DNA of 64,000 bases. Origin: Escherichia phage W22. The first letter of the stretch is position 1. Each line of letters begins with the position of its first letter. A model generated the notes under the pieces. The model ran no database searches. It was not told the origin of the DNA and saw only the letters and a program-made list of their open reading frames with translations. Made by a program: the position numbers and the translations under genes. The DNA lies in sequence record PV159336; one strand, 5' to 3'. Below, one piece after another: positions 7,639-21,854 of this stretch.

Positions 7639-7648
7639 AGTTTTCTCC

Positions 7649-7927: not shown

Positions 7928-7929
7928 AA

Positions 7930-7960: not shown

Positions 7961-7963
7961 TTC

Positions 7964-8686: not shown

Positions 8687-8884
8687 TGTTTCTCCTTATT
8701 TAAAATATTGTTCTAACAAAACACTAATGCGAACTACCGATTCGCCCATATACGCCCCAGCACAGAGGAAAACAACAAATCTACAAAAATTGCAGTACCA
8801 TTTGTTCACTGGAAACGAGGCTAACATTATAATTGCAATAGCAATTAACATCATAAGAACTGTTACTAATACCATATTTACCTC

Positions 8885-10190: not shown

Positions 10191-10408
10191 TTATACACAA
10201 GAGTTTGAATCTCTTCCATCAAGTCTTCAAGATCTGTATCAACGTATTCAGAAGATGTTGCCATAAAGTATGTAATCATTGTGAACCCTTCCGAAGAAAG
10301 GGCATCAAGGATATCATTAAACATATCTTCCATTTCAGTATTCTCACCAAATGAGAATAACATTTGTTGATCTTCGCTTACACCTTTAACATAGATAGCT
10401 GTACTCAT
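10184..10408 (-). CDS. hypothetical acidic protein (74 aa)
   Basis: ORF track. Confidence 0.35.
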   Translation of the reverse strand: MSTAIYVKGVSEDQQMLFSFGENTEMEDMFNDILDALSSEGFTMITYFMATSSEYVDTDLEDLMEEIQTLVYNW

Positions 10409-10411
10409 ATA

Positions 10412-10732
10412 TTAATCCTTAAGACGTTCATTTAAATCTGCAATAACATCACCTAAATCTTCACATTCCAGTGTTAACTCTGAAACTTGTCCACTCAAAT
10501 AACAAACTTCTTCATTTAAATCTGAAATAATGTTTTCTAATGAATCTACTTGGTCATCATATGAACGTTTTGTTTCTTCAAGTTCTTCTGTAAGATCATT
10601 AATCAAACGGAGCAAAGATAAGATATAGCCGTCTCCTGTCTCGTTCCTCCACTCACTTCCGTAGCGATAAATAATAATTTCACCATTATCGACTACTGTA
10701 AAATACTTACCTTCACCAGAATAAATTTCCAT
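10412..10732 (-). CDS. hypothetical protein (106 aa)
   Basis: ORF track; acidic C-terminal half. Confidence 0.4.
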   Translation of the reverse strand: MEIYSGEGKYFTVVDNGEIIIYRYGSEWRNETGDGYILSLLRLINDLTEELEETKRSYDDQVDSLENIISDLNEEVCYLSGQVSELTLECEDLGDVIADLNERLKD

Positions 10733-10741
10733 ACACTCTCC

Positions 10742-11146
10742 TTATTGTAGCTTAAGTGAACTGCGAAGACGTTTCTCTTGCTGATCACGAATATGTTGTG
10801 GAACCTCATGAATTGAGTCGTTACCGTGCCTATTTTCAACAACTAAAGAGATAACTTGATAACCAAACTCTTCAGCAAGAGTAAAATAAGGTTTAAGTTC
10901 TTTCTCTGTGGTTGAAGTGTTAGAGACAATAATCTTTTTAATATTAGATGCCATAGCATCACGAACAATACTCTGACACCATGCGTGTGCTTTACCTACA
11001 TTCTCTGGCTTCCAATCGTAAACACCACTTTCTGTGTAATGATATTGATCTGCCTCACAGATAGGCCAATAACCTTCAGAAATAATTTCTGCTACTGTAG
11101 ATTTACCTGCACCTGAAACACCACGTAAGATGATAAGTTGTTTCAT
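10742..11146 (-). CDS. P-loop kinase, candidate polynucleotide 5'-kinase
   Basis: 134 aa; Walker A GVSGAGKST at residues 9-17; directly abuts the ligase-like gene. Confidence 0.5.
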   Translation of the reverse strand: MKQLIILRGVSGAGKSTVAEIISEGYWPICEADQYHYTESGVYDWKPENVGKAHAWCQSIVRDAMASNIKKIIVSNTSTTEKELKPYFTLAEEFGYQVISLVVENRHGNDSIHEVPQHIRDQQEKRLRSSLKLQ

Positions 11147-12079
11147 TTAGCCTCCAAAGAAGTTTTCTATTTCTTTACGTCGCTCTTGTGGATCTAAAGC
11201 AGCCCATTGAGTCTTAGTAAAGTTGTTTCGAAGCCATTCTAGCAAAGTATAATATTCTTCGTCAACAATTTGTTTAGCATTTTTTGGGTTGTCCCAAATC
11301 ATATCCCACTTCTTATTGCCACCACGCATAAGGAATTTCTTAGCAAGATAGTATGGTGACTTAATCTTTAACAGCAAGTTAAACGGATAGTTTGTTTCAC
11401 GAACAACAAACCCTTCGTGCTTACAATGTTTAGACATTTCAACAACATCTGAAAATTTAATCATCGGATAAACTTCAGGACGTTTAAATTTTGTAATAGA
11501 TGCAATCCCATCAAGCACACCTTCGGGTAGCATGAAACTTGTCCCATCAGGATTTTGAATCCTTGCTCCAATTAAGTATGCGCCTGGTTCTTCTTCAACA
11601 ATATGTGGATCAGAAGGATCACAGATTTCAAAAAGGAAAGTTGCTTTTGCACTTTCTGTCCACTTAATGAAATATTCTATGTCATCACACTCGGAAACAA
11701 TATGGTTCTTGGCAAGAATTGCAAAATCTGACTCTAGGCTCCCTGTTGTTGATACAATAAGTTGCCCTTTGTACACACCTACAGATGCCATAAAACCGTT
11801 TACTTTACGGACAGCATCTACAAGCTGGTCTGCTGGAAGATCTGTACCATTCTCAAAACGATTAAAGATTTTAGTAAAAGGCCAAATAACAACATTGTCT
11901 TCTGAGTCAACAACCAACCCACGACAATCTAGAAGGCGTTTGTCTACGTCCCACAAGTTATCCCAGAATACATTGTTTTTGTATTTAAGTACAGCAAGAC
12001 CAGCATACTCTCCAGATTTAACTTCTTTTTTATGCACTAAACCTTTTGCAATCAGGTCATCACAATTGAACTTAGCCAC
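11147..12079 (-). CDS. putative ATP-dependent RNA ligase (nucleotidyltransferase superfamily)
   Basis: 310 aa; candidate motif I KVNG (lysine nucleotidyltransferase), EGFVVRE (IV), LKIKSP (V); flanked with 0-1 nt gaps by kinase and phosphoesterase. Confidence 0.5.
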   Translation of the reverse strand: MAKFNCDDLIAKGLVHKKEVKSGEYAGLAVLKYKNNVFWDNLWDVDKRLLDCRGLVVDSEDNVVIWPFTKIFNRFENGTDLPADQLVDAVRKVNGFMASVGVYKGQLIVSTTGSLESDFAILAKNHIVSECDDIEYFIKWTESAKATFLFEICDPSDPHIVEEEPGAYLIGARIQNPDGTSFMLPEGVLDGIASITKFKRPEVYPMIKFSDVVEMSKHCKHEGFVVRETNYPFNLLLKIKSPYYLAKKFLMRGGNKKWDMIWDNPKNAKQIVDEEYYTLLEWLRNNFTKTQWAALDPQERRKEIENFFGG

Positions 12080-12080
12080 C

Positions 12081-12632
12081 TTAATCTCCTTTGATTATCT
12101 TATGATGGTCTACAACAACAATATCACGTTTATCCATAATAGAGATGATTTCGTCAAAATGCAAGATTTTTCCGTGTGCGTCCCAACCAACATCCAACAT
12201 TTTCCCATACAAATGATCAGGGAATGATCCGTGAGAGTGCCCGTGTAGCATGATTGATCCATGCCCTTGTTTATTCCAGGCAGCCATAGGGTAATGACTT
12301 AAGACGAAGAACAGTTTCTGATATTTCACTTCGTCATAATACACAACCTCACCATATTCTGCAAGCACTTCTCGGTGTTTGCTGTAATCATGGTTCCCAA
12401 CACAGTAAGTGATATCACCTTGAAGACGTGAAGCAATTTTACGGGTATCTTCTTCAGTCCCGAAACAGAAGTCCCCAAGATGGTACATCTTTACTCCTGG
12501 TGTTGTGGCACATTTATTCCATGCCTCGATCAGTGCTTCTGTCATATGCTCCATATCTTCCCACGGGCGATATTCAGGAGCAAACTCTCGGATACGTTTG
12601 TGCATAAAATGCAAATCACTTGTAATAAACAT
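12081..12632 (-). CDS. calcineurin-like metallophosphoesterase, candidate 2',3'-phosphatase
   Basis: 183 aa; DLHF, GDF..G, GNHD, GHSH metallophosphatase signature motifs. Confidence 0.7.
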   Translation of the reverse strand: MFITSDLHFMHKRIREFAPEYRPWEDMEHMTEALIEAWNKCATTPGVKMYHLGDFCFGTEEDTRKIASRLQGDITYCVGNHDYSKHREVLAEYGEVVYYDEVKYQKLFFVLSHYPMAAWNKQGHGSIMLHGHSHGSFPDHLYGKMLDVGWDAHGKILHFDEIISIMDKRDIVVVDHHKIIKGD

Positions 12633-12994
12633 TAGTATAATCCCTCGCTGAATAGTTCACTGTCGTGACCATTTCTTTCATAGTTAATTTGTTTGGCGTT
12701 ATCTGCAATGATATAAGCATCTTTGCGACTCCACCAGTTATAATACTGATCAATAAACCCTTGATTATCAGGTAAGCAAAACAGTTTATCAATCAATCCT
12801 GCATCTTTTAAAACATTAAGTTGTGCAGATAGTACAGGATTTGCATGCCTAACACAAGGAATAATTAACTCTTCGCCATTGTTGAGAATATACTTATTCG
12901 CAGCGCAGACTATAACACGTTGAGCATAGTGATCCTCACCAATCCAAGTAAGAGGTTGGTAACAAATATCATGTTGATTAGTAGCGCACATCAA
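12632..12994 (-). CDS. hypothetical protein (120 aa)
   Basis: ORF track; overlaps phosphoesterase start by 1 nt. Confidence 0.4.
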   Translation of the reverse strand: MMCATNQHDICYQPLTWIGEDHYAQRVIVCAANKYILNNGEELIIPCVRHANPVLSAQLNVLKDAGLIDKLFCLPDNQGFIDQYYNWWSRKDAYIIADNAKQINYERNGHDSELFSEGLY

Positions 12995-13139
12995 TTTTCT
13001 CCGTACTCTTTTAATCTATCAGCGAAAAAACTGTAATCAGGAAGTAAAAGATCATTACTCGTATCGTTACAGTTTTCTTCCTCTTTATAGATAAAACGCC
13101 CTTCATCCTCTTCTTGCTCTGACCAAACTGAATAATGCA
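12990..13139 (-). CDS. small hypothetical acidic protein (49 aa)
   Basis: Manual ORF (MHYSVWSEQEEDEG...) not in track; stop overlaps the next start as ATGA. Confidence 0.3.
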
Positions 13140-13149
13140 TAATACCTAC

Positions 13150-13524
13150 TTAATAGTTAACACGTTTAATTTCAACACCATAGGATGAAATAAAATTTTC
13201 CTTAGCTAACATATATTTACCAGCAGCAGAAGGATTTGATGTATGAACATAGATAGTTTTAAGAGCATCCCATTCACCAGCGTACAACATACATTCTACG
13301 TCTAAGAACGCATGATATCCTTCTTGATCTTCCCCAAGATCATTATCGAAGTGTATCTCTGAGATATTATTGAAATTATCTTCATCTGAAACAAAAGATA
13401 ACCAATCCTCAAAAGATTTTAACCAAATGGCATCCTCATAACCATAATCTTTAGGATCTCTTAAATCGTCTAACCAAAGAATTTTAGCCACTATCAACCC
13501 CCTTCCTGTTTCTCTTCTTTCCAA
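13150..13524 (-). CDS. hypothetical protein (124 aa)
   Basis: ORF track. Confidence 0.4.
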   Translation of the reverse strand: MERRETGRGLIVAKILWLDDLRDPKDYGYEDAIWLKSFEDWLSFVSDEDNFNNISEIHFDNDLGEDQEGYHAFLDVECMLYAGEWDALKTIYVHTSNPSAAGKYMLAKENFISSYGVEIKRVNY

Positions 13525-13685
13525 GTTTTACCATTATCTACCAACTTCTTAGAAACAGCAAATCTTTCTCCATTGATATAAAACAAATAAAGAATAAAGG
13601 ATTTTCCTATAGTTACAGTATCTACTACTTCTACACGCTTCACACCTTGCATGTATTTGGCTTTACCTGAATAAATAAGGAACAT
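13494..13685 (-). CDS. hypothetical protein (63 aa)
   Basis: ORF track. Confidence 0.3.
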   Translation of the reverse strand: MFLIYSGKAKYMQGVKRVEVVDTVTIGKSFILYLFYINGERFAVSKKLVDNGKTWKEEKQEGG

Positions 13686-13963
13686 TACTTATTCCTTTTG
13701 TTGTTGATCACATCTAAAGCTGTGTAAGGTTTGTTTGTACCGCTGTATTCAAGAATAATTGATACATATTCATAGACCAACTCAAAAGTACCATACATAG
13801 AATCTGCAACTGAAATAAGCATTTCAGTGCCTTTGTCGTTCTTAATTAATGAAAATCTTGCCCCTGGTTTATTGAGCACTTCATATTTCTTACCTGCTGT
13901 CAGCAAACCTGAATACCATTCATTTTGCACAACAGACAAACACTTCAGATAAGTTTTTCTCAT
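13685..13963 (-). CDS. hypothetical protein (92 aa)
   Basis: ORF track. Confidence 0.4.
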   Translation of the reverse strand: MRKTYLKCLSVVQNEWYSGLLTAGKKYEVLNKPGARFSLIKNDKGTEMLISVADSMYGTFELVYEYVSIILEYSGTNKPYTALDVINNKRNK

Positions 13964-14301
13964 TTCTTTTTGCTCCTTCTTTTAGGTTTCTCGTATAAAC
14001 CTAACACAGCCGACTCTTTTGCGCAAATAGGAACTGACTTCATTCCTCGTTTTTTAGCTTCTGGTAGATTCAAAACCCACCAGCCAAACCAGTACAATTC
14101 ATCTTCTGTGAAAGGATCTGCCATAGGATCTGCATCACGTGCTTCAAATTTAGCAAGAGCTTCTTCTATCTTTTCTATTGGAGTATCAAAGACAAAAGCC
14201 TCTGTGTCAAATTTTTGTTTCTTAGGAGCGGCTTTTGCCGCCCCATCTTTAGATGCGCGCTTTGTTACGGATCGCTTCTTCGGTGTTTTCGCCATCAACA
14301 A
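13960..14301 (-). CDS. hypothetical lysine-rich protein, possibly nucleic-acid binding
   Basis: 113 aa; basic N- and C-termini (KKRSVTKRASK, KPKRRSKKK). Confidence 0.4.
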   Translation of the reverse strand: MLMAKTPKKRSVTKRASKDGAAKAAPKKQKFDTEAFVFDTPIEKIEEALAKFEARDADPMADPFTEDELYWFGWWVLNLPEAKKRGMKSVPICAKESAVLGLYEKPKRRSKKK

Positions 14302-14488
14302 CCTCCATGCGGTGTAAGAAATCTTGCTGGAATCGCCAATACTGTTGACCAGTCCTTACATCTTCGTAGATCACAACAGGATCAAATACTTTAGATACAC
14401 CCGCTGGTTTAGGAAAGCCAACTACACGATATAAACCGCCTTTGCTAATACAAGAATATGTTACATCAGTTAAAATTTCTTTTTTCAT
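14249..14488 (-). CDS. hypothetical protein (79 aa)
   Basis: ORF track; overlaps neighbour in another frame. Confidence 0.3.
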   Translation of the reverse strand: MKKEILTDVTYSCISKGGLYRVVGFPKPAGVSKVFDPVVIYEDVRTGQQYWRFQQDFLHRMEVVDGENTEEAIRNKARI

Positions 14489-14682
14489 TTCTTAATAAAC
14501 TCCAATACAGGTACGTGATCAGCAGTTAAAGTTACACAATTGTAACTTACCTTTTCAACTTCAGAGAATGCTTCAACCCATAGCAAGAAATTCTCTTTAG
14601 CTTCTTCATAATTCAATGTTGACTTAACAACATGGAACTCACCAAGGATTACTCTATAGATTGTTTGCATAGTTTGATTCAT
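14485..14682 (-). CDS. hypothetical protein (65 aa)
   Basis: ORF track. Confidence 0.35.
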   Translation of the reverse strand: MNQTMQTIYRVILGEFHVVKSTLNYEEAKENFLLWVEAFSEVEKVSYNCVTLTADHVPVLEFIKK

Positions 14683-14748
14683 TTATTTTTCCTTTGTTTA
14701 AAATGTGTTAAACAATCGCAAATGCTTGTGACGCACTTTGTGATCCCA

Positions 14749-15117
14749 CTAATTAACGTCAGCACTATGATTGTTGAGAGTATAGGATACTCCATCGCCC
14801 AAGTCAACATGAATCTCAACTCCTAACTGTCTTTCTAATGGTAAACGTTTTGAGAATTGATAATTACAAAGTTTACAGTCTAAGTCAAGCAACTCATGTT
14901 TGCTTAAACCTGCAACGATAACTTTGCTTCCCACTGTCCACTCAATACCTTCAAAGTTATCTCTTCTTTTCAAAATGTCAAGTAAGAAAATGATTTGTTG
15001 CCATTCCGTAGACAAGTCTTCTTCATAGAATGCAGAACAAAAAGTTTTATCATCGTAGAAAGCATACATTATGCCTCCATCTATTGTTTCACTTCTAACG
15101 TAACGTGTGACCCTCAT
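14749..15117 (-). CDS. hypothetical protein, first gene of the minus-strand early operon
   Basis: ORF track 14749..15156; ATG at 15115-15117 preceded by AGGAGGG RBS chosen as start. Confidence 0.45.
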   Translation of the reverse strand: MRVTRYVRSETIDGGIMYAFYDDKTFCSAFYEEDLSTEWQQIIFLLDILKRRDNFEGIEWTVGSKVIVAGLSKHELLDLDCKLCNYQFSKRLPLERQLGVEIHVDLGDGVSYTLNNHSADVN

Positions 15118-15248
15118 TATTCCCTCCTGTATGGCTCTGTAACGAGCTAATAGCACCTAAGATATGCAATCACCTTACCTCACAGTAAAACTCGTTACAA
15201 TCGTTTTTAGGAGGTTTAGGTTGTACTTAAAAATAATCTAAAAAGGTG

Positions 15249-15277
15249 TTGACAAACGCAAAAAAGTATGCTACCCT
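15249..15277 (+). promoter_or_regulatory. sigma70-like promoter (TTGACA, 17 nt spacer, TGn-TACCCT)
   Basis: Consensus -35 hexamer with extended -10-like element in the divergent control region. Confidence 0.35.
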
Positions 15278-15459
15278 AACCCCCGAAAAACGCCGAGCGC
15301 AGCGAGGGGGGTGTTATCTAATCTTGTGATACATGATCTAACAGACAACTGAGTAGTCTACATATAGCACTATGTTATGTCTATAATACTAACATACATG
15401 CTCTATACTAACAATAGATTATTTATTAATTTTATTATTAATTAAATAATAAATATCTA

Positions 15460-15488
15460 TTGACTTTAGATCTATCTGTATGTAGATT
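15460..15488 (+). promoter_or_regulatory. sigma70-like promoter upstream of the PRPP-synthetase-like gene
   Basis: TTGACT, 17 nt, TAGATT about 40 nt upstream of the 15528 start. Confidence 0.45.
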
Positions 15489-15527
15489 AGAGAACATAAA
15501 GTCCTAACTCAACTAAGGAGATAAAGA

Positions 15528-16421
15528 ATGAAAGTTAGTATTCTGCATGGTGTTGACTGTTATGTTACTGATGTAGACGTTAAAGTGTTTACATTCTCTG
15601 GTGGAGAACAACATGTTCAATTAGATACGAATCTATCAGGTTTCAATCATGCTACAGACAGAATCTTACTCACTTTAGAAGTAAGATCTGCTAAAGACTT
15701 GATGACTTTGGTTATGACTAAGAATGCATTGGACAATATGCTATATCATAAACCATATTGTGTTGATTTACTCATGTTGTATGTGCCGTATGCACGACAA
15801 GACAGAGTGTGTGAGCCTGGGGAAGCATTCGGAGTTAAAGCATTTGCTTCTATAATTAATTCATTAAATTTCTCACGTGTTATCGTTGCTGATCCACATA
15901 GTGATGTTACTCCAGCAGTGTTTGACAGACTCTGTGTAATACCTCAAGAAGAGATTGCTTACGAAACTTTAAAGTGGAAGTTACGTATGGAGAATTTTGC
16001 TCTTGTTAGCCCTGATGGTGGTGCTCTTAAGAAAATATTTAAATTATCTAAGAAAATGTCTTTAGATGTGTTCTGTGCAGAGAAGGTTAGAGATACCGCA
16101 ACAGGTGCTATTGTTCGTACAGACATTTCTGTACAGGATTTCAATAAGCGTAACCTGATGATCGTAGATGATATCTGTGATGGTGGTAGAACTTTTATCG
16201 AATTGGCTAAAGTGCTACGTGCTCGTAACGCAGGTAAGATTGAGCTATATGTTACACACGGTATCTTTTCTAAAGGTCTTAAAGAGTTGAGTGAGCACTT
16301 TGACTGCATTCATTCTCTTAATGTGTGGGAAGATAACATCCAAGAAGATTCCGGTGTTCTTGTTAAGAATCAGTCAGATTTGCAACAACAAATTGTATCT
16401 CCATACGTGTGGAATTTTTAA
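15528..16421 (+). CDS. prs: ribose-phosphate pyrophosphokinase (PRPP synthetase)-like; possibly ADP-ribose pyrophosphokinase of an NAD+ reconstitution pathway
   Basis: 297 aa; PRPP-binding loop LMIVDDICDGGRTF; AGGAG RBS. Confidence 0.7.
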   Translation: MKVSILHGVDCYVTDVDVKVFTFSGGEQHVQLDTNLSGFNHATDRILLTLEVRSAKDLMTLVMTKNALDNMLYHKPYCVDLLMLYVPYARQDRVCEPGEAFGVKAFASIINSLNFSRVIVADPHSDVTPAVFDRLCVIPQEEIAYETLKWKLRMENFALVSPDGGALKKIFKLSKKMSLDVFCAEKVRDTATGAIVRTDISVQDFNKRNLMIVDDICDGGRTFIELAKVLRARNAGKIELYVTHGIFSKGLKELSEHFDCIHSLNVWEDNIQEDSGVLVKNQSDLQQQIVSPYVWNF

Positions 16422-16431
16422 ATAACAAGTG

Positions 16432-16460
16432 TTGACAATAGGGAGTATGCTTAGTAAGAT
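16432..16460 (+). promoter_or_regulatory. sigma70-like promoter (TTGACA, 17 nt, TAAGAT)
   Basis: Sequence match upstream of the 16493 start. Confidence 0.45.
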
Positions 16461-16492
16461 ACTCCCACACTAACAAACAAGGAGACATAACT

Positions 16493-18226
16493 ATGAATAT
16501 TTTTGCACCTTTTGCTACTGATTGGTACAAACCTGGTCACAAGCAGATGTACAATCAAAATACAAAACTCATTTTCTCTAATTTAACTCCTCGTAATGAT
16601 AAAAACTTTGCGCACTATGCAGATCGTGAAGCACGTGGTGTGATTGTTTTAGGTATTCGTCGAGCAGTCACTGATGCTCTTGTAACTATGTGGGATAGCT
16701 TCTTTAAAATGTCTCGTAGTGCAGCAGTAAATAAATTTTATCGTATGTCTAAAAATGCATTAGGTGCTTCTGCTCCTTCTGCTGAATGTTGGGGAGAATT
16801 GCACGATTTAGGTTATCTTCCGCTGGAAGTTCGATCTCTGCCAGAAGGTGTTTTGTGTCCTATTGGTGTTCCTGTGTTTACTGTGCATAATACTTTAGAA
16901 AAATTCTTTTGGTTAACTAACTATGTGGAAACACTGTTGTCAGATGAAACTTGGAAGACAATGACTAATGCCACAGCAGCTTTTCAGTATAAGCGTATCG
17001 CTATGGCATATGCGATGGCAACGTGTGATAATATTGATCACGTTAACTTCCAGTGTCATGATTTTAGCCTACGTGGTTTAAGTAATATCGAAGATGGTTA
17101 TAAGAGTGGTATCGCTCATTTAGCATCTTTCACAGGGACAGATAATATTCTGGCTATTGAAACTGTGCATGATTATTATGGTATTGATTATGATCAGTTT
17201 GTTGCAGGTTCTATTCCGGCAACAGAACATTCAGTAGCAACGACTAACATTGGAGCTATTGTTGAAGACCTGAAGAAACATTTCCCACATCTTAAAGATG
17301 ATGTAGATGGTCTTCGTTATGTAGCAGAGAAAGAGTTTCTTCGTCGTTATATTGAAGAAATTGTTCCAGAAGGTTTTTGTTCATATGTAGCAGATTCCTA
17401 TGATTACTGGGCTGTCTTGACTCGCATTCTGGTAGAATTGAAAGAATCCATTATGTCACGAAATGGTCGTCTTGTTATTCGTCCAGATTCAGGAGATCCG
17501 GTTAAAGTTGTTGCAGGATACAATGTTGAATCTTTTGATAACTATGAAGACCTTTTAAATAATGGTATTGCGACAGCCACTGAAGTAGTTCATTTGGCTG
17601 ATGTTAATAAGTATTACAATGTTCTTCAGGATTGCAGTGTTGCTGACTGTATTGATGAAACTTATGAGATTCCTTATTGTGAAGCAGTAGGTTCTATTCA
17701 AATCCTTTGGGAAGTGTTTGGTGGTACTATCAACCGAAAAGGCTACAAGGTTCTTGATCAGCATATCGGTATGATTTATGGTGATTCTATTACTGTTGAA
17801 CGAGAACACGAGATCTTACGCCGACTGAAGAAGAAAGGTTTTGCAGCTTCCAATATCGTATTTGGTGTTGGTAGTTATACTTATCAGTTCAATACACGAG
17901 ATACTTTCGGTTTTGCTGTTAAAGCAACAGGTAGTATCATCGGTGAACACGAAATTTTGGTAAGTAAGGAGCCTAAAACTGATCCTGGTAAACGCTCTGC
18001 AAAAGGTTTTATTAAGGTTGTTAAGGATACCAATGGTAATCTGTCTCTTGTAGATAATCTTTCTTTTAAAGATATCCAGGATGAAGACAATGAGTTACAA
18101 GTTATCTTCAAGGATGGTAAGGTTATTACACCACAAGTAGAAGGCCGTGATGAAACATTCACTGATATCCGCAACCGTGTTGACGTAGAGGTTCTTCGTA
18201 CTATGGGAACCATCCAGGTTGACTAA
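16493..18226 (+). CDS. nadV: nicotinamide phosphoribosyltransferase (NadV/NAMPT)-like
   Basis: 577 aa; N-terminal FATDWYKPGHKQMY and overall length typical of the NAMPT family. Confidence 0.7.
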   Translation: MNIFAPFATDWYKPGHKQMYNQNTKLIFSNLTPRNDKNFAHYADREARGVIVLGIRRAVTDALVTMWDSFFKMSRSAAVNKFYRMSKNALGASAPSAECWGELHDLGYLPLEVRSLPEGVLCPIGVPVFTVHNTLEKFFWLTNYVETLLSDETWKTMTNATAAFQYKRIAMAYAMATCDNIDHVNFQCHDFSLRGLSNIEDGYKSGIAHLASFTGTDNILAIETVHDYYGIDYDQFVAGSIPATEHSVATTNIGAIVEDLKKHFPHLKDDVDGLRYVAEKEFLRRYIEEIVPEGFCSYVADSYDYWAVLTRILVELKESIMSRNGRLVIRPDSGDPVKVVAGYNVESFDNYEDLLNNGIATATEVVHLADVNKYYNVLQDCSVADCIDETYEIPYCEAVGSIQILWEVFGGTINRKGYKVLDQHIGMIYGDSITVEREHEILRRLKKKGFAASNIVFGVGSYTYQFNTRDTFGFAVKATGSIIGEHEILVSKEPKTDPGKRSAKGFIKVVKDTNGNLSLVDNLSFKDIQDEDNELQVIFKDGKVITPQVEGRDETFTDIRNRVDVEVLRTMGTIQVD

Positions 18227-18973: not shown

Positions 18974-19049
18974 GGTTCCATAGCTCACTGACGAGAGCGC
19001 ACACCTCATAAGTGTCGAGGGCAGGGATTGTAACCCTGGGGAACCACCA
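18974..19049 (+). tRNA. tRNA, anticodon CAT (Met or Ile2), atypical T-loop
   Basis: Manual fold: acceptor GGTTCC/GGAACC, anticodon loop CTCATAA, CCA encoded. Confidence 0.45.
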
Positions 19050-19080
19050 TTTAAAAGGAGGTGCTATGCATCTCCTATAT

Positions 19081-19166
19081 GCAAGTGTGGTGGAATTGGT
19101 GATACACATTGTGCTTAAAACGCAACGCTTAAATGCTTGAGGGTTCGAATCCCTCCACTTGCACCA
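19081..19166 (+). tRNA. tRNA-Leu (anticodon TAA)
   Basis: Manual fold: acceptor GCAAGTG/CACTTGC, loop CTTAAAA, long variable arm, T-loop GGTTCGAATCC, CCA. Confidence 0.6.
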
Positions 19167-19168
19167 AC

Positions 19169-19273
19169 GCCTAGTAGGGTATTTGGTAATTCCGAGGCCA
19201 TCAAAGCCTGAAAAATATGTTAGACCGCTTTGTCTAACTAAATACGAAATATGGTTCGATTCCATAACTAGGC
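19169..19273 (+). ncRNA. atypical tRNA-like element (about 105 nt; possible UCA anticodon; no CCA)
   Basis: Perfect 7-bp acceptor GCCTAGT/ACTAGGC, T-arm TATGG-TTCGATT-CCATA, anticodon-like hairpin with loop CATCAAA, 7-bp extra arm GTTAGAC/GTCTAAC. Confidence 0.3.
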
Positions 19274-19306
19274 TTCAATTTAAATAATAATTTTAGTAAA
19301 AATATC

Positions 19307-19335
19307 TTGACATTCACTTAGTTTTTTGTTATAGT
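19307..19335 (+). promoter_or_regulatory. sigma70-like promoter (TTGACA, 17 nt, TGt-TATAGT)
   Basis: Near-consensus promoter inside the tRNA cluster. Confidence 0.5.
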
Positions 19336-19345
19336 TACTGTGAAA

Positions 19346-19427
19346 ACGGGGTGTATCTCACCTGACTTCTAATCAGGCGTTAACCGAGTAATTGGAGTAT
19401 GCAGGTTCGAATCCTGTCACCCCGACC
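19346..19427 (+). ncRNA. atypical tRNA-like element (anticodon-like loop CTTCTAA, no recognisable D-arm)
   Basis: Perfect acceptor CGGGGTG/CACCCCG plus ACCA, T-arm GCAGG-TTCGAAT-CCTGT, hairpin CCTGA-CTTCTAA-TCAGG only 7 nt after the acceptor. Confidence 0.35.
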
Positions 19428-19446
19428 AAAAAGTTTTTAAAAACTA

Positions 19447-19475
19447 CTTGACAAGCAAGATAGTTTTATGTTAGA
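19447..19475 (+). promoter_or_regulatory. sigma70-like promoter (TTGACA, 17 nt, TGt-TAGATT)
   Basis: Sequence match inside the tRNA cluster. Confidence 0.45.
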
Positions 19476-19491
19476 TTTAAAGTATGATAAC

Positions 19492-19581
19492 GGGAAGGTA
19501 GGGCGCAGCGGTGCGCAACCAGGTTTGAACCCTGGCCCATTGTAGCGATACGGTGATGGTTCGACTCCATTATCTTCCTCC
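19492..19581 (+). tRNA. tRNA-Ser (anticodon TGA)
   Basis: Manual fold: acceptor GGAAGGT/ATCTTCC, stem CCAGG/CCTGG with loop TTTGAAC, long variable arm, CCA. Confidence 0.55.
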
Positions 19582-19600
19582 AAATTCAACTAGGAGCTTT

Positions 19601-19753
19601 ATGAATTATAAAACTATTGGACAGGTTGTTACCGGAGTTAAGATTGTAGATAATAAAGTTGTTTATGAGTATTCTAATCTTCAACAATCTGAAGATGGTA
19701 AGAATATTCGTATGGTAAAAGCAGAACAAAAAGATTCCGGTTGTTTTGAATAA
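19601..19753 (+). CDS. small hypothetical protein (50 aa)
   Basis: ORF track 19553..19753 overlaps tRNA-Ser; internal ATG after AGGAG RBS chosen. Confidence 0.35.
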   Translation: MNYKTIGQVVTGVKIVDNKVVYEYSNLQQSEDGKNIRMVKAEQKDSGCFE

Positions 19754-19761
19754 TTAAGAAC

Positions 19762-19847
19762 GGTAGATTGGTGAAATGGTAGCCACAACAGTTTGCTAAA
19801 CTGTCGTCGGAAACGGCGTGTAGGTTCAAGTCCTACATCTACCGCCA
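19762..19847 (+). tRNA. tRNA-Ser (anticodon GCT)
   Basis: Manual fold: acceptor GGTAGAT/ATCTACC, stem ACAGT/ACTGT loop TTGCTAA, long variable arm, discriminator G, CCA. Confidence 0.6.
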
Positions 19848-19974
19848 AGTTATCTTTAATGTAGCTTGTAATCTTACTTTAATAGAGTAAACTTTCGGCA
19901 GATGGCCCCCCACCATCTTACCGATATCCCATAGTCAAGTGCCGCAAACACTGGCTATTTTAAAGATAATTTAT

Positions 19975-20050
19975 ACATCGTTAGCTTAGTTGGTAGAGCA
20001 AGGGGCTTTTAACTCCAAGGTCGAAGGTTCGAATCCTTCACGATGTACCA
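19975..20050 (+). tRNA. tRNA-Lys (anticodon TTT)
   Basis: Manual fold: acceptor ACATCGT/ACGATGT, D-arm GCTTAGTTGGTAGAGC, loop CTTTTAA, T-loop GGTTCGAATCC, CCA. Confidence 0.6.
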
Positions 20051-20055
20051 AACAC

Positions 20056-20142
20056 GTAGGTATCGCATAGCGGCAATTGCTGGAGACTGTAAATCTCTTG
20101 CCCTTCGGGGCTTCGTTGGTTCGAGTCCAACTACCTGCACCA
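20056..20142 (+). tRNA. tRNA-Tyr (anticodon GTA)
   Basis: Manual fold: acceptor GTAGGTA/TACCTGC, stem GGAGA/TCTCT loop CTGTAAA, long variable arm, CCA. Confidence 0.6.
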
Positions 20143-20149
20143 AATTAAA

Positions 20150-20234
20150 GATGGATTGGCCTAGTGGTTGGGCGACGGACTGTTAATCCGTGAACGAAAG
20201 TTCTAGCAAGGTTCAAATCCTTGATCCATCGCCA
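20150..20234 (+). tRNA. tRNA with Asn anticodon GTT on a class-II (long variable arm) scaffold
   Basis: Manual fold: acceptor GATGGAT/ATCCATC, stem ACGGA/TCCGT loop CTGTTAA, 15-nt variable arm GAAC-GAAA-GTTC, discriminator G, CCA. Confidence 0.45.
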
Positions 20235-20241
20235 GAATTAT

Positions 20242-20318
20242 GGACTTGTAGAGTTAAGGTAAACCTCCAGTCGCCAAGAGGCTTCTGGAATTGCAGGTAT
20301 CGAATCCTGCCGAGTCCA
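20242..20318 (+). ncRNA. atypical tRNA-like element (anticodon unresolved, 8-nt T-loop, no CCA)
   Basis: 7-bp acceptor GGACTTG/CGAGTCC and T-arm GCAGG-TATCGAAT-CCTGC; no clean anticodon arm found. Confidence 0.3.
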
Positions 20319-20324
20319 AGTATT

Positions 20325-20399
20325 GCTCCTATCGTATAACGGCTATTACGGTTGCCTTGTAAGCAACTTATCAGGGTTCGAGTCCTTGTGGGAGCACCA
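20325..20399 (+). tRNA. tRNA-Thr (anticodon TGT)
   Basis: Manual fold: acceptor GCTCCTA/TGGGAGC, stem GTTGC/GCAAC loop CTTGTAA, CCA. Confidence 0.6.
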
Positions 20400-20416
20400 A
20401 TTTTAACTCTAAAGGA

Positions 20417-20746
20417 GTGTATGTGACAGAAAAAGAGTTAGAGAAATATTTTAATATCAATGTTTTCGATGGTTTTGATGATATTGAAGATGTTGAAAGA
20501 TATTATGAAGTAGAGTTAGATAAGGATAACATTGTAATTCTTTCTGCCACTTATGATTGTGCATATTATGAAGGTGAATCTCACGTTTATTTTTATGATA
20601 TGAAAACATCTTTGTTTTATGAAGTACACGCATATCATTGTTCTTGTTATGGCTTAGAAGGTCAGTGGGAACCTGAAGAAATAGGTGATTTGGACTTTAC
20701 TATTGCATATCTAAACAGACGTGGTGCATCTACTATTTTAAAATAA
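20417..20746 (+). CDS. hypothetical Cys/His-containing protein inside the tRNA cluster
   Basis: ORF track (109 aa); GTG start region after AAGGAG RBS; motif HAYHCSCYG. Confidence 0.45.
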   Translation: MYVTEKELEKYFNINVFDGFDDIEDVERYYEVELDKDNIVILSATYDCAYYEGESHVYFYDMKTSLFYEVHAYHCSCYGLEGQWEPEEIGDLDFTIAYLNRRGASTILK

Positions 20747-20760
20747 ATATCAAAAGCCTC

Positions 20761-20789
20761 TTGACAAAGGGGCTAATAATATGTTAGAG
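20761..20789 (+). promoter_or_regulatory. sigma70-like promoter (TTGACA, 17 nt, TGt-TAGAGT)
   Basis: Sequence match upstream of tRNA-Gly. Confidence 0.45.
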
Positions 20790-20801
20790 TAATATTGTTA
20801 A

Positions 20802-20876
20802 GCGGGTATAGTGTTAATGGTAGCATATGAGGTTTCCACCCTCCAGGTGCAGGTTCAAGTCCTGTTACTCGCTCCA
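20802..20876 (+). tRNA. tRNA-Gly (anticodon TCC)
   Basis: Manual fold: acceptor GCGGGTA/TACTCGC, loop TTTCCAC, T-loop GGTTCAAGTCC, CCA. Confidence 0.55.
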
Positions 20877-20975
20877 AGATTATTTAAATGGAATCGCTAG
20901 AGAAAATTTCTCTTTTCGCTCATGGTTTTCTCCTTCAAACTCTAGCGGTTCTTTTTAAGTGATTTTTAGTTTTAT

Positions 20976-21050
20976 TGGAGATTAGCCTAGTGGGAAGGCA
21001 ACGGCCTTTGAAGTCGTGATGACTAGGTTCGATTCCTAGATCTCCAGCCA
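20976..21050 (+). tRNA. tRNA-Gln (anticodon TTG)
   Basis: Manual fold: acceptor TGGAGAT/ATCTCCA, stem ACGGC/GTCGT loop CTTTGAA, T-loop GGTTCGATTCC, CCA. Confidence 0.55.
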
Positions 21051-21057
21051 GTATTTA

Positions 21058-21133
21058 CAGTGCGTAGCGCAGTTGGTAGCGTGGGAGCTTTGGATGCTTC
21101 GGGTCGCAGGTTCGAGTCCTGCCGCACTGACCA
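21058..21133 (+). tRNA. tRNA-Pro (anticodon TGG)
   Basis: Manual fold: acceptor CAGTGCG/CGCACTG, D-arm GCGCAGTTGGTAGCG, loop TTTGGAT, T-loop GGTTCGAGTCC, CCA. Confidence 0.55.
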
Positions 21134-21138
21134 AATTT

Positions 21139-21213
21139 GCAGAGATAGCTGAGACGGATTAGTGCTACCCTGAAAAGGTAGAAAGGATGGATCGTTACCA
21201 TCTCTCTGCACCA
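21139..21213 (+). tRNA. tRNA-Phe (anticodon GAA), atypical T-loop
   Basis: Manual fold: acceptor GCAGAGA/TCTCTGC, stem CTACC/GGTAG loop CTGAAAA, CCA. Confidence 0.5.
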
Positions 21214-21289
21214 AATAACACCATCCAAGGAGTAGACTTGGTTAACTGTCAATAGCACATTGAGGCTTCTTACAGTGGTGTATTTTTAT

Positions 21290-21374
21290 GGCTAAGTGGT
21301 GGAATGGTATACACGATACGCTTAGAACGTATTGCCCCAAGGGATTGTGAGTTCGAGTCTCACCTTAGCTACCA
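21290..21374 (+). tRNA. tRNA-Leu (anticodon TAG)
   Basis: Manual fold: acceptor GGCTAAG/CTTAGCT, stem ATACG/CGTAT loop CTTAGAA, long variable arm, CCA. Confidence 0.6.
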
Positions 21375-21462
21375 TATCTAAGAGATATCATAGGGTTTGC
21401 AACGGATATCTACCGTCCTGTTAAGGATACCACGCCAAGACGGGTTATAAAGGGTTAGCCAT

Positions 21463-21538
21463 TGATAGTGTGAAGCTGGCGTTTCGAGTGCTTTCATAAG
21501 GCATTGCGAGAAGAGTTCGATTCTCTTACTATCAACCA
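21463..21538 (+). tRNA. tRNA, anticodon CAT (Met, fMet or Ile2)
   Basis: Manual fold, 76 nt: acceptor TGATAGT/ACTATCA, loop TTCATAA, T-arm AAGAG-TTCGATT-CTCTT, CCA. Confidence 0.55.
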
Positions 21539-21553
21539 AATTACTACAGATTG

Positions 21554-21632
21554 CGCGGGATAGAGGAGTCTGGTCGTCCTCGCCAGTTTCATATGCTGGA
21601 GATCGTAGGTTCAAATCCTACTCCCGCCTCCA
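21554..21632 (+). tRNA. tRNA, anticodon CAT (Met, fMet or Ile2)
   Basis: Manual fold: D-stem GAGG/CCTC, stem CCAGT/GCTGG loop TTCATAT, T-loop GGTTCAAATCC, CCA; one acceptor mismatch. Confidence 0.45.
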
Positions 21633-21697
21633 ATAAATACCTCCCTTCTGGTGTAATGATTAAGTTACATTGACACTTCAAGGAACTTATAGCCGGG

Positions 21698-21773
21698 TAG
21701 ATTTAAAAGAGTATGGTACTCAATATGGCTCCAAACCATAGATCAAGGGGTTCGATTCCTCACCTTGCTGCCA
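21698..21773 (+). ncRNA. tRNA-Trp-like element (anticodon-like loop CTCCAAA) with unpaired acceptor
   Basis: Perfect stem TATGG/CCATA with loop CTCCAAA, T-arm with TTCGATT loop, 3' CCA; no complementary 5' acceptor strand found. Confidence 0.3.
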
Positions 21774-21778
21774 ATTAT

Positions 21779-21854
21779 TGTGGTATCGTACAGATGGTTA
21801 GTACACTCGACCGATAATCGAGAAACAACGGTTCGACTCCGTTTACCACGACCA
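21779..21854 (+). tRNA. tRNA-Ile (anticodon GAT)
   Basis: Manual fold: acceptor TGTGGTA/TACCACG, D-arm GTACAGATGGTTAGTAC, stem CTCGA/TCGAG loop CCGATAA, T-loop GGTTCGACTCC, CCA. Confidence 0.55.

What the first reader, a model, noticed from the sequence alone, without database searches (positions are those of the whole stretch)
12990..15117. Promoter-proximal block of small overlapping early ORFs, candidate host-takeover or anti-defence island
Downstream of the early promoter region are nine short ORFs (49-124 aa) with no recognisable catalytic motifs, several overlapping or coupled. They include a lysine-rich putative nucleic-acid-binding protein (13960-14301) and a 124-aa protein with an ILWLDD..RDP / FDNDLGE pattern. 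The first-transcribed small genes of virulent phages are a frequent home of defence inhibitors.
Basis: inference. Interest (0 to 1): 0.45.

Follow-up and report, generated by a model that had tools for sequence, protein, structure and literature searches.

The report
Conserved small-gene block with cRec enzyme
The flagged stretch is a real, conserved run of nine tightly coupled small genes at the head of a long operon in a phi92-like coliphage. Eight have unknown function, and one is a predicted but never tested "cRec" phosphoesterase that sits next to RNA-repair and NAD-rebuilding counter-defence genes.

Summary
The window is a phi92-like E. coli myophage (Justusliebigvirus), 99.2% identical to PD114 and ECGD1. 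The finding covers phi92 gp099–gp106 on the minus strand, plus one 43-aa membrane ORF that phi92 does not annotate.

The ORFs are real:
- ~99% coding density.
- Shine-Dalgarno sites and ATGA/TAATG/TGATG coupling.
- Correct-frame codon usage.
- Pooled pN/pS of 0.12–0.16.
- 40–75% amino-acid conservation in the sister genus Phapecoctavirus.

The genes just downstream are a metallophosphoesterase, an Rnl1 RNA ligase and a P-loop kinase. Transcribed divergently are homologues of the NARP1 NAD+ pathway and 16 tRNA genes.

The lysine-rich protein is a core gene of rV5-like phages with basic disordered tails and no known fold. The other ORFs match nothing known.

"Early" timing and anti-defence roles remain untested. 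The block is stable, not hypervariable. Overall: ordinary, modest interest.

The parts
15157..15527 (.). Divergent AT-rich intergenic region, presumed to hold the promoters for both arms. It contains a GC-rich block at 15269-15310 that is also conserved in a divergent relative.
   Evidence: There is no strong sigma-70 consensus. The GC-skew minimum lies here.
14749..15117 (-). gp106A homologue, 122 aa, acidic, and the first gene of the leftward operon. Function unknown.
   Evidence: phrog_14390. Found in 132 phage records, Stephanstirmvirinae only. The N-terminus is conserved in L005 and L011, which supports the 15117 start. No PDB or Pfam hit.
14679..14810 (-). 43-aa single-pass membrane peptide ORF that phi92 does not annotate. 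It overlaps the 3' end of gp106 and is ATGA-coupled to gp105.
   Evidence: SD AGGAG. A positional homologue is annotated in phAPEC8 as G377_gp126. Pairwise E = 1e-5. Three synonymous and no nonsynonymous differences against phi92. The codon-usage score is ambiguous at -0.33.
14485..14682 (-). gp105 homologue, 65 aa. Function unknown.
   Evidence: phrog_15683. Found in 131 phage records.
14249..14488 (-). gp104 homologue, 79 aa. Weak, sub-threshold resemblance to DUF1653.
   Evidence: PF07866 E = 0.077, 13.8 bits against a cutoff of 23.5. Found in 139 phage records.
13960..14295 (-). gp103 homologue, 111 aa, pI 9.7. It has Lys/Ala/Pro-rich disordered N- and C-terminal tails around a small conserved beta-alpha-alpha-beta-alpha core. 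It is a core gene of rV5-like phages. The public label 'transposase-like' is unsupported.
13685..13963 (-). gp102 homologue, 92 aa. Function unknown.
   Evidence: phrog_10169. Found in 121 records. No PDB hit.
13494..13685 (-). gp101 homologue, 63 aa. Function unknown.
   Evidence: phrog_15376. Found in 124 records.
13150..13491 (-). gp100 homologue, 113 aa, GTG start. It is a cRec domain (cyclic-phosphate-processing receiver domain) and a predicted phosphoesterase.
12991..13140 (-). gp099 homologue, 49 aa, very acidic (pI 4.1). It is positionally conserved directly downstream of cRec in Stephanstirmvirinae.
   Evidence: phrog_18323.
12632..12991 (-). gp098 homologue, 119 aa, just outside the finding. 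Function unknown. The public label 'anti-restriction nuclease' is unsupported.
   Evidence: phrog_839. No significant Pfam, NCBIfam or PDB match.
12081..12632 (-). Calcineurin-like metallophosphoesterase (gp097). Candidate 2',3'-phosphate end-healing enzyme.
   Evidence: Metallophos_2 E = 2.6e-4, below the cutoff. The DxH, GD, GNHD and GHxH motifs are readable in the translation.
11147..12079 (-). T4 Rnl1-type RNA ligase (gp096).
   Evidence: PF09511 E = 4.5e-14, 53.3 bits against a cutoff of 28.3.
10742..11146 (-). P-loop kinase (gp095, AAA_33). Candidate polynucleotide 5'-kinase without a phosphatase domain.
   Evidence: PF13671 E = 1.1e-9, 39.2 bits against a cutoff of 27. Walker A motif GVSGAGKST.
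15528..16421 (+). PRPP-synthetase-like protein, a homologue of Bas63 Adps (NARP1 step 1).
   Evidence: 36% identity, E = 3e-43, to bas63_0079. TIGR01251 118 bits.
16493..18226 (+). NAMPT-like protein, a homologue of Bas63 Namat (NARP1 step 2).
   Evidence: 39% identity over the full length, E = 2e-136, to bas63_0080. PF04095.
18974..21854 (+). Array of 16 tRNA genes, including Lys-UUU, Tyr, Asn and Gln.
   Evidence: ARAGORN.

Best explanation
The block is the promoter-proximal part of a long leftward polycistronic operon in a phi92-like phage. It holds nine translationally coupled small genes that are real, conserved and under purifying selection.

Eight of them have no assignable function: gp106, the 43-aa membrane peptide, gp105, gp104, gp103, gp102, gp101 and gp099. 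They are stable, lineage-specific genes of Stephanstirmvirinae. gp103 is the exception in range: it is a basic-tailed protein conserved across all rV5-like phages.

The ninth, gp100, is a cRec domain. This is a receiver-fold protein that keeps the acidic phospho-chemistry pocket (DD after beta1, DxD after beta3, H-[ST]-x-N after beta4) but is never linked to histidine kinases.

Most likely mechanism (inferred, not shown): gp100 is a small phosphoesterase. It opens or removes a cyclic or terminal phosphate, probably through an aspartyl-phosphate-type mechanism like HAD and receiver domains. It would work with the metallophosphoesterase, Rnl1 ligase and P-loop kinase encoded just downstream to heal and reseal tRNAs cut by host anticodon nucleases.

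Together with the divergently transcribed NARP1-like NAD+ reconstitution genes and the tRNA array, the locus is a hub against translation- and NAD-directed immunity. The small ORFs have not been shown to take part in that.

Confidence by layer: about 0.95 that the genes are real and operonic; about 0.95 that gp100 is a cRec family member; about 0.4-0.45 that its job is RNA-end healing in this module. The overall figure reflects the weakest, mechanistic layer.
For: Identity of the phage and genes.

Coding status. Conservation and order in Phapecoctavirus.

cRec membership and fold.

Synteny of cRec with RNA-repair genes survives rearrangement:
- phi92-like: cRec-gp099-gp098-MPE-Rnl1-kinase.
- rV5-like loci L006-L010 and L012: gp103-MPE-Rnl1-cRec-kinase.
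- L013: Rnl1-cRec next to a divergent kinase-MPE pair.

Independent links elsewhere:
- RtcB ligase lies 100 bp upstream of cRec in Treponema parvum.
- RlaP lies 10 bp downstream of cRec, with an ART nearby, in L045.
- Metallophosphoesterases lie near cRec in L047.

Published predictions for the same neighbourhood in phage rV5: PMC7824862 and PMC9503650.

The kinase here is 134 aa with no phosphatase domain. By inference, an end-healing phosphatase must therefore be supplied in trans.

NARP1 homology. tRNA array.
Against: - No cRec protein has been assayed. Iyer et al. 2022 state that it is experimentally uncharacterised.
- phAPEC8 keeps cRec but has no Rnl1, kinase, Adps or Namat anywhere in its genome, and only a 62-aa MPE stump. 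cRec can therefore persist without these partners.
- In ten distant cRec contexts sampled with Pfam-annotated neighbours, none had an RNA ligase or NARP1 within 5 kb. Most sat in arrays of anonymous small ORFs.
- The MPE alone could in principle do both cyclic phosphodiesterase and monoesterase steps, as the CthPnkp and lambda phosphatases do (PMC2190708 abstract). That would leave no obligatory role for cRec.
- The classical receiver Lys after beta5 is not conserved family-wide.
- Profile comparison with CheY gives no sequence signal. The residue equivalences therefore rest on topology only.
Confidence: 0.45

Rival explanations
1. gp100/cRec acts on small ADP-ribose-derived molecules rather than RNA ends. 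It would serve the adjacent NARP1 pathway by opening ADPR-1'',2''-cyclic phosphate or a cyclic-ADPR-type product. ADPR cyclic phosphate is the spontaneous decay product of the NARP1 intermediate ADPR-PP. The metallophosphoesterase would then trim the product to ADPR, and Adps/Namat would rebuild NAD+. This would parallel the Macro-domain Adpp in NARP1-AP.
For: - NARP1 homologues are divergently adjacent here and in rV5-like loci.
- In the unrelated viral contig L028, cRec, Adps-like and Namat-like genes are directly tandem on one strand.
- ADPR-PP decays to ADPR-cyclic phosphate in infected cells (10.1101/2024.02.11.579819).
- There is precedent for accessory enzymes that widen NARP1 substrate range (10.64898/2026.01.28.702374).
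- Iyer et al. predict 1''-2'' cyclic ADPr phosphate as a cRec substrate and report Nudix fusions.
- L005 keeps cRec, MPE and NARP1 but shows no Rnl1 or kinase within the 7-kb flanks.
Against: - phAPEC8 has cRec without NARP1.
- L011 shows no NARP1 within its flanks.
- Ten distant contexts lacked NARP1.
- In rV5-like phages cRec is wedged between Rnl1 and the kinase, 4-5 kb from NARP1.
- No biochemical data exist.
Confidence: 0.2
2. One reading: one or more of the anonymous small proteins (gp106, TM43, gp105, gp104, gp102, gp101, gp099) are stoichiometric inhibitors of host defence systems or host-takeover factors, made first after infection.
For: - They have the first position after the divergent intergenic region.
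- They are small. gp099 (pI 4.1) and gp106 are acidic.
- None has a housekeeping domain.
- They sit within a counter-defence-rich locus.
- Distant cRec genes typically sit in similar small-ORF arrays.
Against: - No similarity to any known anti-defence protein in Pfam, PHROGs or PDB sequences.
- Gene content is invariant, with 95-100% identity across ~55 genomes and synteny across two genera. Variability between close relatives is a common feature of anti-defence islands (my own knowledge).
- pN/pS of 0.12-0.16 shows no sign of diversifying selection.
- Early timing is unproven.
- The related phage phAPEC8 has a much larger small-ORF array with predicted host-type promoters at its left genome end.
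Confidence: 0.3
3. gp103 and some neighbouring genes are housekeeping factors for the replication and nucleotide-metabolism arm they precede. For example, gp103 could be a histone-like or nucleic-acid chaperone protein. On this reading they are not conflict genes.
For: - gp103 is conserved in 341 rV5-like phages across many host genera.
- It has variable Lys/Ala/Pro-rich tails around a conserved core.
- The operon continues into DNA ligase, a MazG-like protein, RdgC, an exonuclease, TK and ThyX.
Against: - Its core has no fold or sequence match.
- In rV5-like phages it sits directly upstream of the RNA-repair genes, which fits a role in that module equally well.
- Nucleic-acid binding is untested.
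Confidence: 0.3
4. The small ORFs are chance reading frames or annotation artefacts.
For: - All are short.
- TM43 has a negative codon-usage score and is not annotated in phi92.
Against: - ~99% coding density, Shine-Dalgarno sites and start/stop coupling.
- Frame-specific codon usage.
- pN/pS of 0.12-0.16.
- Protein-level conservation at 40-75% in a sister genus.
- Even TM43 has an annotated homologue in phAPEC8.
Confidence: 0.02

Closest known systems
cRec (cREC_REC, PF20274) genes in the rV5/Mydo-type phage RNA-repair neighbourhood (Iyer et al., Viruses 2021 PMC7824862 and 2022 PMC9503650)
   Same: - Same Pfam family above threshold, with the receiver fold and the invariant DD/DxD residues.
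- Same partners: T4-like RNA ligase, nucleotide kinase, calcineurin-like phosphoesterase, and a MazG-like gene further down the operon.
- Same standalone ~110-aa architecture.
   Different: - Gene order differs. Here cRec is separated from the ligase by gp099, gp098 and the MPE. In rV5-like phages it lies between the ligase and the kinase.
- No sirtuin was found in this window.
- The family's activity is a prediction only.
T4 Pnkp + Rnl1 tRNA repair pathway against the PrrC anticodon nuclease
   Same: - An Rnl1-family ligase and a P-loop 5'-kinase are encoded together in a lytic coliphage.
- An Asp-based phosphatase chemistry is plausible for the end-healing step.
   Different: - T4 Pnkp fuses the kinase to a HAD (DxDxT) phosphatase.
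- Here the kinase is standalone (134 aa). The candidate end-healing enzymes are a separate metallophosphoesterase and the receiver-fold cRec.
- No anticodon-nuclease target is known for phi92-like phages.
NARP1 and NARP1-AP (Adps, Namat and the Macro-domain phosphatase Adpp; Osterman et al. 2024 and 2026 preprints)
   Same: - Adps-like and Namat-like genes are adjacent to the block (36% and 39% identity to the Bas63 enzymes).
- The idea of an accessory phosphoesterase feeding ADPR into NARP1 would fit a cRec+MPE pair.
   Different: - The characterised accessory enzyme is a Macro domain, not cRec.
- Here cRec is on the opposite strand in a different operon.
- cRec also occurs in phages that lack NARP1.
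Classical two-component receiver domains (CheY-like)
   Same: - Acidic residues at the C-terminal ends of beta1 and beta3, and Ser/Thr after beta4.
   Different: - No detectable sequence similarity (hhalign probability 0.6%).
- Extra invariant residues: W6, R11, P13, D51, H83, N86.
- The beta5 lysine is not conserved.
- No histidine kinase or output domain. The protein is phage-encoded.
Leading-edge small early genes of model phages (for example T7 Ocr, T4 Arn)
   Same: Small, often acidic proteins encoded at the start of a transcription unit.
   Different: - No sequence similarity was detected.
- Early timing is unproven here.
- The block is stably conserved, not variable.
- The 'anti-restriction nuclease' label on gp098 in some records has no support.

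Membership tests
cRec domain (Pfam PF20274 cREC_REC) | Profile match above the curated gathering score | tested here: met
   54.3 bits against a cutoff of 27, E = 2.3e-14, covering residues 4-92. All homologues carry precomputed PF20274.
cRec domain (Pfam PF20274 cREC_REC) | Receiver (CheY-like) alpha/beta fold | tested here: met
   [not shown]
cRec domain (Pfam PF20274 cREC_REC) | Conserved aspartates of the receiver-type active site | tested here: met
   D8, D9 and D49 are invariant and D51 is >=90% conserved across 41 members at 25-45% identity. The window protein has all of them. Their placement at strand ends comes from the model's secondary structure, not from a superposition.
cRec domain (Pfam PF20274 cREC_REC) | Genomic context of RNA-repair or NAD/ADP-ribose enzymes, never a histidine kinase | tested here: met
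   In this window the MPE, Rnl1 and kinase lie 0.5-2.4 kb downstream in the same operon, with Adps/Namat-like genes divergent. For the family at large my sample was mixed. Links were seen in rV5-like loci, Treponema (RtcB), L028 (NARP1-like) and L045 (RlaP). They were absent in phAPEC8 and in most of ten distant contigs.
cRec domain (Pfam PF20274 cREC_REC) | Cyclic-phosphate or phosphoester hydrolysis activity | not testable with these tools
   The activity is a published prediction only. The family is stated to be experimentally uncharacterised (PMC9503650).
Phage heal-and-seal RNA repair (T4 Pnkp/Rnl1 type) | ATP-dependent Rnl1-family RNA ligase | tested here: met
   PF09511, 53.3 bits against a cutoff of 28.3, at 11147-12079.
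Phage heal-and-seal RNA repair (T4 Pnkp/Rnl1 type) | Polynucleotide 5'-kinase | tested here: inconclusive
   A P-loop AAA_33 kinase fold with a Walker A motif is present. Substrate specificity is not established.
Phage heal-and-seal RNA repair (T4 Pnkp/Rnl1 type) | 2',3'-phosphate end-healing phosphoesterase | tested here: inconclusive
   The MPE has the canonical DxH/GD/GNHD/GHxH motifs, but its Pfam score is below the cutoff (21.5 against 27). cRec is a second candidate. No activity is known for either.
NARP1 (Adps + Namat) | Adjacent PRPS-like and NAMPT-like genes homologous to the characterised Bas63 pair | tested here: met
   36% identity (E = 3e-43) and 39% identity (E = 2e-136) to bas63_0079 and bas63_0080. 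Discrimination from genuine Prs/Nampt by specificity residues was not tested.
Known anti-defence proteins (Ocr, Arn, Tad, Acb, Apyc and others) | Detectable sequence homology to a characterised inhibitor | tested here: not met
   - No Pfam hit for any small ORF except cRec, plus a sub-threshold DUF1653 hit.
- All PHROGs matches are families of unknown function.
- No NCBIfam hit.
- No PDB sequence or profile hit for gp106, gp103, gp102 or gp098.
- Structure-level comparison was possible only for gp100 and gp103. No dedicated anti-defence HMM library was available.
DUF1653 (PF07866), for gp104 | Profile match above the gathering score | tested here: not met
   13.8 bits against a cutoff of 23.5, E = 0.077. 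This is a resemblance only.

The most novel reading that the evidence does not exclude
cRec (gp100), possibly with the neighbouring metallophosphoesterase, is a new class of counter-defence enzyme acting on ADP-ribose-derived molecules. It would open ADPR-1'',2''-cyclic phosphate or a cyclic-ADPR immune signal so that the adjacent NARP1 enzymes can rebuild NAD+. That would give the first biochemical function to a very large family of receiver-fold proteins that have left two-component signalling: more than 7,000 sequence clusters at 90% identity, nearly all in phage-like contigs.
Probability: 0.15. Interest if true: 0.65.

Novelty: new member of a known kind. Interest (0 to 1): 0.3.

Why it matters
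On its own the block is an ordinary set of conserved hypothetical genes in a heavily sequenced phage genus.

Its value is practical. It places an untested, very widespread predicted enzyme family (cRec) in a tractable E. coli phage, with close relatives in the BASEL collection. The gene sits beside a split RNA-repair module and an NAD+ reconstitution pathway.

Nearly all public records call this gene 'hypothetical protein'. Testing gp100 here could settle whether receiver-fold proteins have been recruited as phosphoesterases in phage–host conflicts, and on which substrate.

The analysis also corrects two misleading public labels ('transposase-like' and 'anti-restriction nuclease'). It adds one small membrane-peptide gene that is missing from the phi92 annotation.

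Tried and rejected
- PADLOC scan of all ten small proteins: no hits. This library covers defence systems, not anti-defence proteins.
- NCBIfam: nothing meaningful.
- Rfam on 12500-15700: no hits.
- Sigma-70 promoter and terminator scan: not above chance.
- Pfam scan of ten longer cRec-containing proteins: no second domain recognised.
- hhalign of the cRec alignment against CheY: uninformative.
- Pfam census of 103 neighbours of distant viral cRec loci: no family recurred in more than 2 members. There were single cases of SIR2, RNA ligase and NAPRTase.
- The genome-contig scan returned only 7 loci because the peptide patterns were narrow.
- Searches for transcriptomes or functional studies of phi92, rV5, Bas60 or Bas61 genes in this block found none.
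- No Sir2 homologue in the window.
- I rejected the 124-aa TTG start for gp100. Homologues begin 2-3 residues before the WLDD motif, and a GTG with a strong SD follows the gp101 stop.
- I rejected the gp106B internal start as the main product. The N-terminus of the longer form is conserved in L005 and L011.


Full report
**Identity of the sequence.** A 3-kb query spanning the finding matches 55 phage genomes over at least 80% of its length. It is 99.2% identical to Escherichia phages PD114, ECGD1 and SD2, and 98.6% to phi92. The window is therefore a Justusliebigvirus (Stephanstirmvirinae). The finding corresponds to phi92 genes gp099-gp106. All genes from window position 1 to 15117 are on the minus strand. 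Transcription diverges at a 370-bp AT-rich intergenic region (15157-15527), where cumulative GC skew also reaches its minimum.

**Check of the observation.** The minus strand between 12991 and 15117 carries eight ORFs that phi92 also annotates. A ninth, a 43-aa hydrophobic ORF at 14679-14810, is not annotated in phi92.
- Start and stop codons are coupled: ATGA at three junctions, TAATG and TGATG at two, and a 47-nt overlap at gp104/gp103. Nearly every start has a Shine-Dalgarno motif.
- Codon-usage log-odds are positive in the annotated frame and negative in the other frames for all eight annotated genes. One reverse frame of gp103 is the exception, at +0.10.
- Pooled pN/pS is 0.16 against a 96%-identical relative and 0.12 against phi92.
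- In the sister genus Phapecoctavirus (phAPEC8, loci L005 and L011) the same genes occur in the same order at 40-75% amino-acid identity.
- The small membrane ORF has an annotated 38-aa counterpart in phAPEC8 (G377_gp126). It shows three synonymous and no nonsynonymous differences against phi92.
gp100 starts at the GTG at 13491 (113 aa), not the TTG at 13524 (124 aa). gp103 starts at the ATG at 14295 (111 aa).

The ORFs are real and coupled.

**The 'early promoter'.** This part is not verifiable. The consensus scan found 12 promoter-like sites in 12500-15700 against 11.7 expected from shuffles. The intergenic candidates match only 9 of 12 positions. I found no transcriptome or TSS data for phi92-like, phAPEC8-like or rV5-like phages in the paper library. 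In the related phage phAPEC8 the annotators placed host-type promoters in a 24-kb array of roughly 75 small ORFs at the left genome end, and none at the equivalent of this intergenic region. The block is promoter-proximal by position. Its temporal class is unknown.

**What the proteins are.** Pfam, PHROGs, NCBIfam and PADLOC scans of all ten small proteins gave one solid result. The 'ILWLDD..RDP / FDNDLGE' protein (gp100) matches PF20274, the cyclic-phosphate-processing receiver domain (cRec), at 54.3 bits against a gathering score of 27.
- An AlphaFold model built on 22 homologues has pLDDT 93.7 and a five-stranded alpha/beta layout.
- Across 41 family members at 25-45% identity the invariant residues are D8, D9, D49, L52, G58 and H83. 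R11, D51, E66 and N86 are at least 90% conserved.
- In the model these fall after beta1 (DD), after beta3 (DxD) and after beta4 (H-T-S-N-P). Those are the positions of the receiver phospho-acceptor pocket. This mapping is by topology, because profile comparison with CheY shows no sequence signal.
- The family is large: 2,040 representatives at 50% clustering with E <= 1e-3, and at least 7,489 clusters at 90% identity with E <= 1e-5.
- It occurs in 357 phage genomes in GenBank, almost always labelled 'hypothetical protein'.

**What is known about cRec.** Iyer et al. (Viruses 2021, PMC7824862) defined the domain. They noted that it is never found with histidine kinases, and found operonic links to NAD/ADP-ribose enzymes and to several RNA ligase families. 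They proposed that it processes cADPr or 2',3'-cyclic phosphates. Their 2022 survey (PMC9503650) explicitly describes a neighbourhood 'prototyped by Escherichia phage V5' containing a sirtuin, a T4-like tRNA ligase, cRec, a nucleotide kinase, MazG and sometimes a calcineurin-like phosphoesterase. It states that cRec remains experimentally uncharacterised. I found no later paper that tests it.

**Context in this window.** Downstream in the same coupled gene string lie, in order:
- gp098 (unknown function);
- a calcineurin-like metallophosphoesterase, whose DxH, GD, GNHD and GHxH motifs are readable although the Pfam score is below the cutoff;
- a T4 Rnl1-type RNA ligase (PF09511, 53 bits);
- a 134-aa P-loop kinase (AAA_33, 39 bits);
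- then DNA ligase, a MazG-like protein, RdgC, an exonuclease, TK and ThyX.

On the other side of the intergenic region are a PRPS-like and a NAMPT-like gene. They are 36% (E = 3e-43) and 39% (E = 2e-136) identical to Bas63 Adps and Namat, the characterised NARP1 NAD+ reconstitution enzymes (10.1101/2024.02.11.579819). Sixteen tRNA genes follow.

**Comparative evidence for cRec's partners.**
- In rV5-like loci the order is gp103-MPE-Rnl1-cRec-kinase. In L013, Rnl1-cRec faces a divergent kinase-MPE pair. The linkage therefore survives rearrangement at ~50% protein identity.
- Independent cases: RtcB, an unrelated RNA ligase, lies directly upstream of cRec in Treponema parvum.
- An RlaP nucleotidyltransferase abuts cRec in a 304-kb phage contig, with an ART nearby.
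- In viral contig L028, cRec, an Adps-like gene and a Namat-like gene are tandem.

**Against a strict dependency.**
- The complete phAPEC8 genome retains cRec and the whole small-gene block. It has no Rnl1, kinase, Adps or Namat, and only a 62-residue MPE stump fused to another ORF.
- In ten distant cRec contigs with Pfam-annotated neighbours, none had an RNA ligase or NARP1 within 5 kb. Most cRec genes sat in arrays of anonymous small ORFs.
- A Pfam census of 103 neighbours of distant viral loci showed no recurrent partner.

**Mechanism.** The best-supported reading is that gp100 is a small phosphoesterase serving the split heal-and-seal RNA-repair module. The kinase here lacks the HAD phosphatase domain that T4 Pnkp carries. 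The 2',3'-phosphate end-healing step must therefore be supplied by the metallophosphoesterase, by cRec, or by both.

Receiver and HAD domains share Asp-phosphate chemistry (established knowledge). The invariant DxD after beta3 resembles the HAD nucleophile and general-acid pair (my inference). Every catalytic step is inferred and none is shown.

The main rival is that cRec, perhaps with the MPE, feeds NARP1 by opening ADPR cyclic phosphate. The NARP1 study observed this compound as the decay product of ADPR-PP. Accessory phosphatases are now known to extend NARP1, as with the Macro-domain Adpp.

**The other small proteins.**
- gp106, gp105, gp104, gp102 and gp101 occur in 121-139 genomes, essentially only Stephanstirmvirinae. 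They are always labelled hypothetical.
- gp104 resembles DUF1653 only below threshold.
- gp099 is a 49-aa acidic peptide that always follows cRec in this subfamily.
- None resembles a known anti-defence protein at the sequence level.
- The block's gene content is invariant among ~55 close relatives and syntenic across two genera, with low pN/pS. This is not the hypervariable pattern common in anti-defence islands, although it does not exclude such a role.

**Verdict.**
The locus is rich in counter-defence functions. One flagged ORF belongs to a predicted conflict-related enzyme family. The catalytic-motif claim was wrong, early timing is unproven, and no small ORF is shown to inhibit a defence.
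- The cRec gene and its neighbourhood are already described computationally for rV5-like phages, so this is a new member of a known kind. Interest is modest.
- The most novel reading still open is a NARP1-accessory or immune-signal-degrading role for cRec.

Noticed in passing
window 14679-14810 (-): A 43-aa single-pass membrane ORF that phi92 and most relatives do not annotate. It overlaps the last 62 nt of gp106 and is ATGA-coupled to gp105. phAPEC8 annotates a 38-aa homologue (G377_gp126). The C-terminal 22 residues of gp106 that overlap it are not conserved in the sister genus.
   Followed up: yes
window 15269-15310 (-): A GC-rich block (CCCCCTCGCTGCGCTCGGCG...TTAGGGTAGCA) sits inside the AT-rich divergent intergenic region. 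It is conserved in the much more divergent locus L005 and is unique in the window. It has no Rfam match, is not a convincing terminator, and shows no clear conserved hairpin. It may be a regulatory protein site or a non-sigma-70 promoter element.
   Followed up: partly
window ~15420-15460: An AT-rich TAAT/TTAT tract in the intergenic region varies in copy number between near-identical relatives, with 11-12-nt insertions in L003 and L004.
   Followed up: no
window 15528-18226 (+): The genes annotated as ribose-phosphate pyrophosphokinase and nicotinamide phosphoribosyltransferase are homologues of the Bas63 NARP1 enzymes Adps and Namat (36% and 39% identity). The public functional names are therefore probably wrong.
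   Followed up: partly
window 18974-21854 (+): An array of 16 tRNA genes lies directly downstream of the NARP1-like pair, including Lys-UUU, Tyr, Asn and Gln. The phi92 record also annotates a 'hypothetical tRNA' inside the NAMPT-like gene. ARAGORN finds no tRNA in the corresponding part of the window.
   Followed up: partly
phAPEC8 NC_020079.1 54206-55398 (loci L039-L042): phAPEC8 carries a deletion relative to phi92. The metallophosphoesterase is cut to its first 62 residues and fused to a gp093-like tail. Rnl1, the kinase, Adps and Namat are absent from the whole genome, yet cRec, gp099 and gp098 remain.
   Followed up: yes
L011 6995-7339 and phAPEC8 55057-55392: The cRec allele of Phapecoctavirus is only 46% identical to the window's, while flanking genes are 75-95% identical. 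This suggests allelic replacement by recombination at this one gene.
   Followed up: partly
GenBank MG065639, MG065645, MG065656, MG065689 ('Campylobacter phage' A150, A145, C3, A110a): Records labelled as Campylobacter jejuni phages are 98.7% identical to this coliphage region over 3 kb. The host labels are probably wrong, or the records come from contaminating coliphages.
   Followed up: no
window 12632-12991 (-) and 13960-14295 (-): The public labels 'anti-restriction nuclease' (gp098) and 'transposase-like protein' (gp103) have no support from Pfam, NCBIfam or PDB searches. They appear to have spread between records by annotation transfer.
   Followed up: yes
window 10187-10732 (-): Two strongly acidic small proteins sit just downstream of the kinase: gp094 (pI 4.05, predicted coiled coil) and gp093 (pI 4.05, net charge -15.5). 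They look at least as much like DNA-mimic-type candidates as anything inside the flagged block.
   Followed up: no
window 13925-14317 (+): A 130-aa ORF lies antisense to gp103. It is probably a by-product of the Lys-rich codons on the other strand, which read as Leu/Phe-rich in antisense. Conservation was not examined.
   Followed up: no
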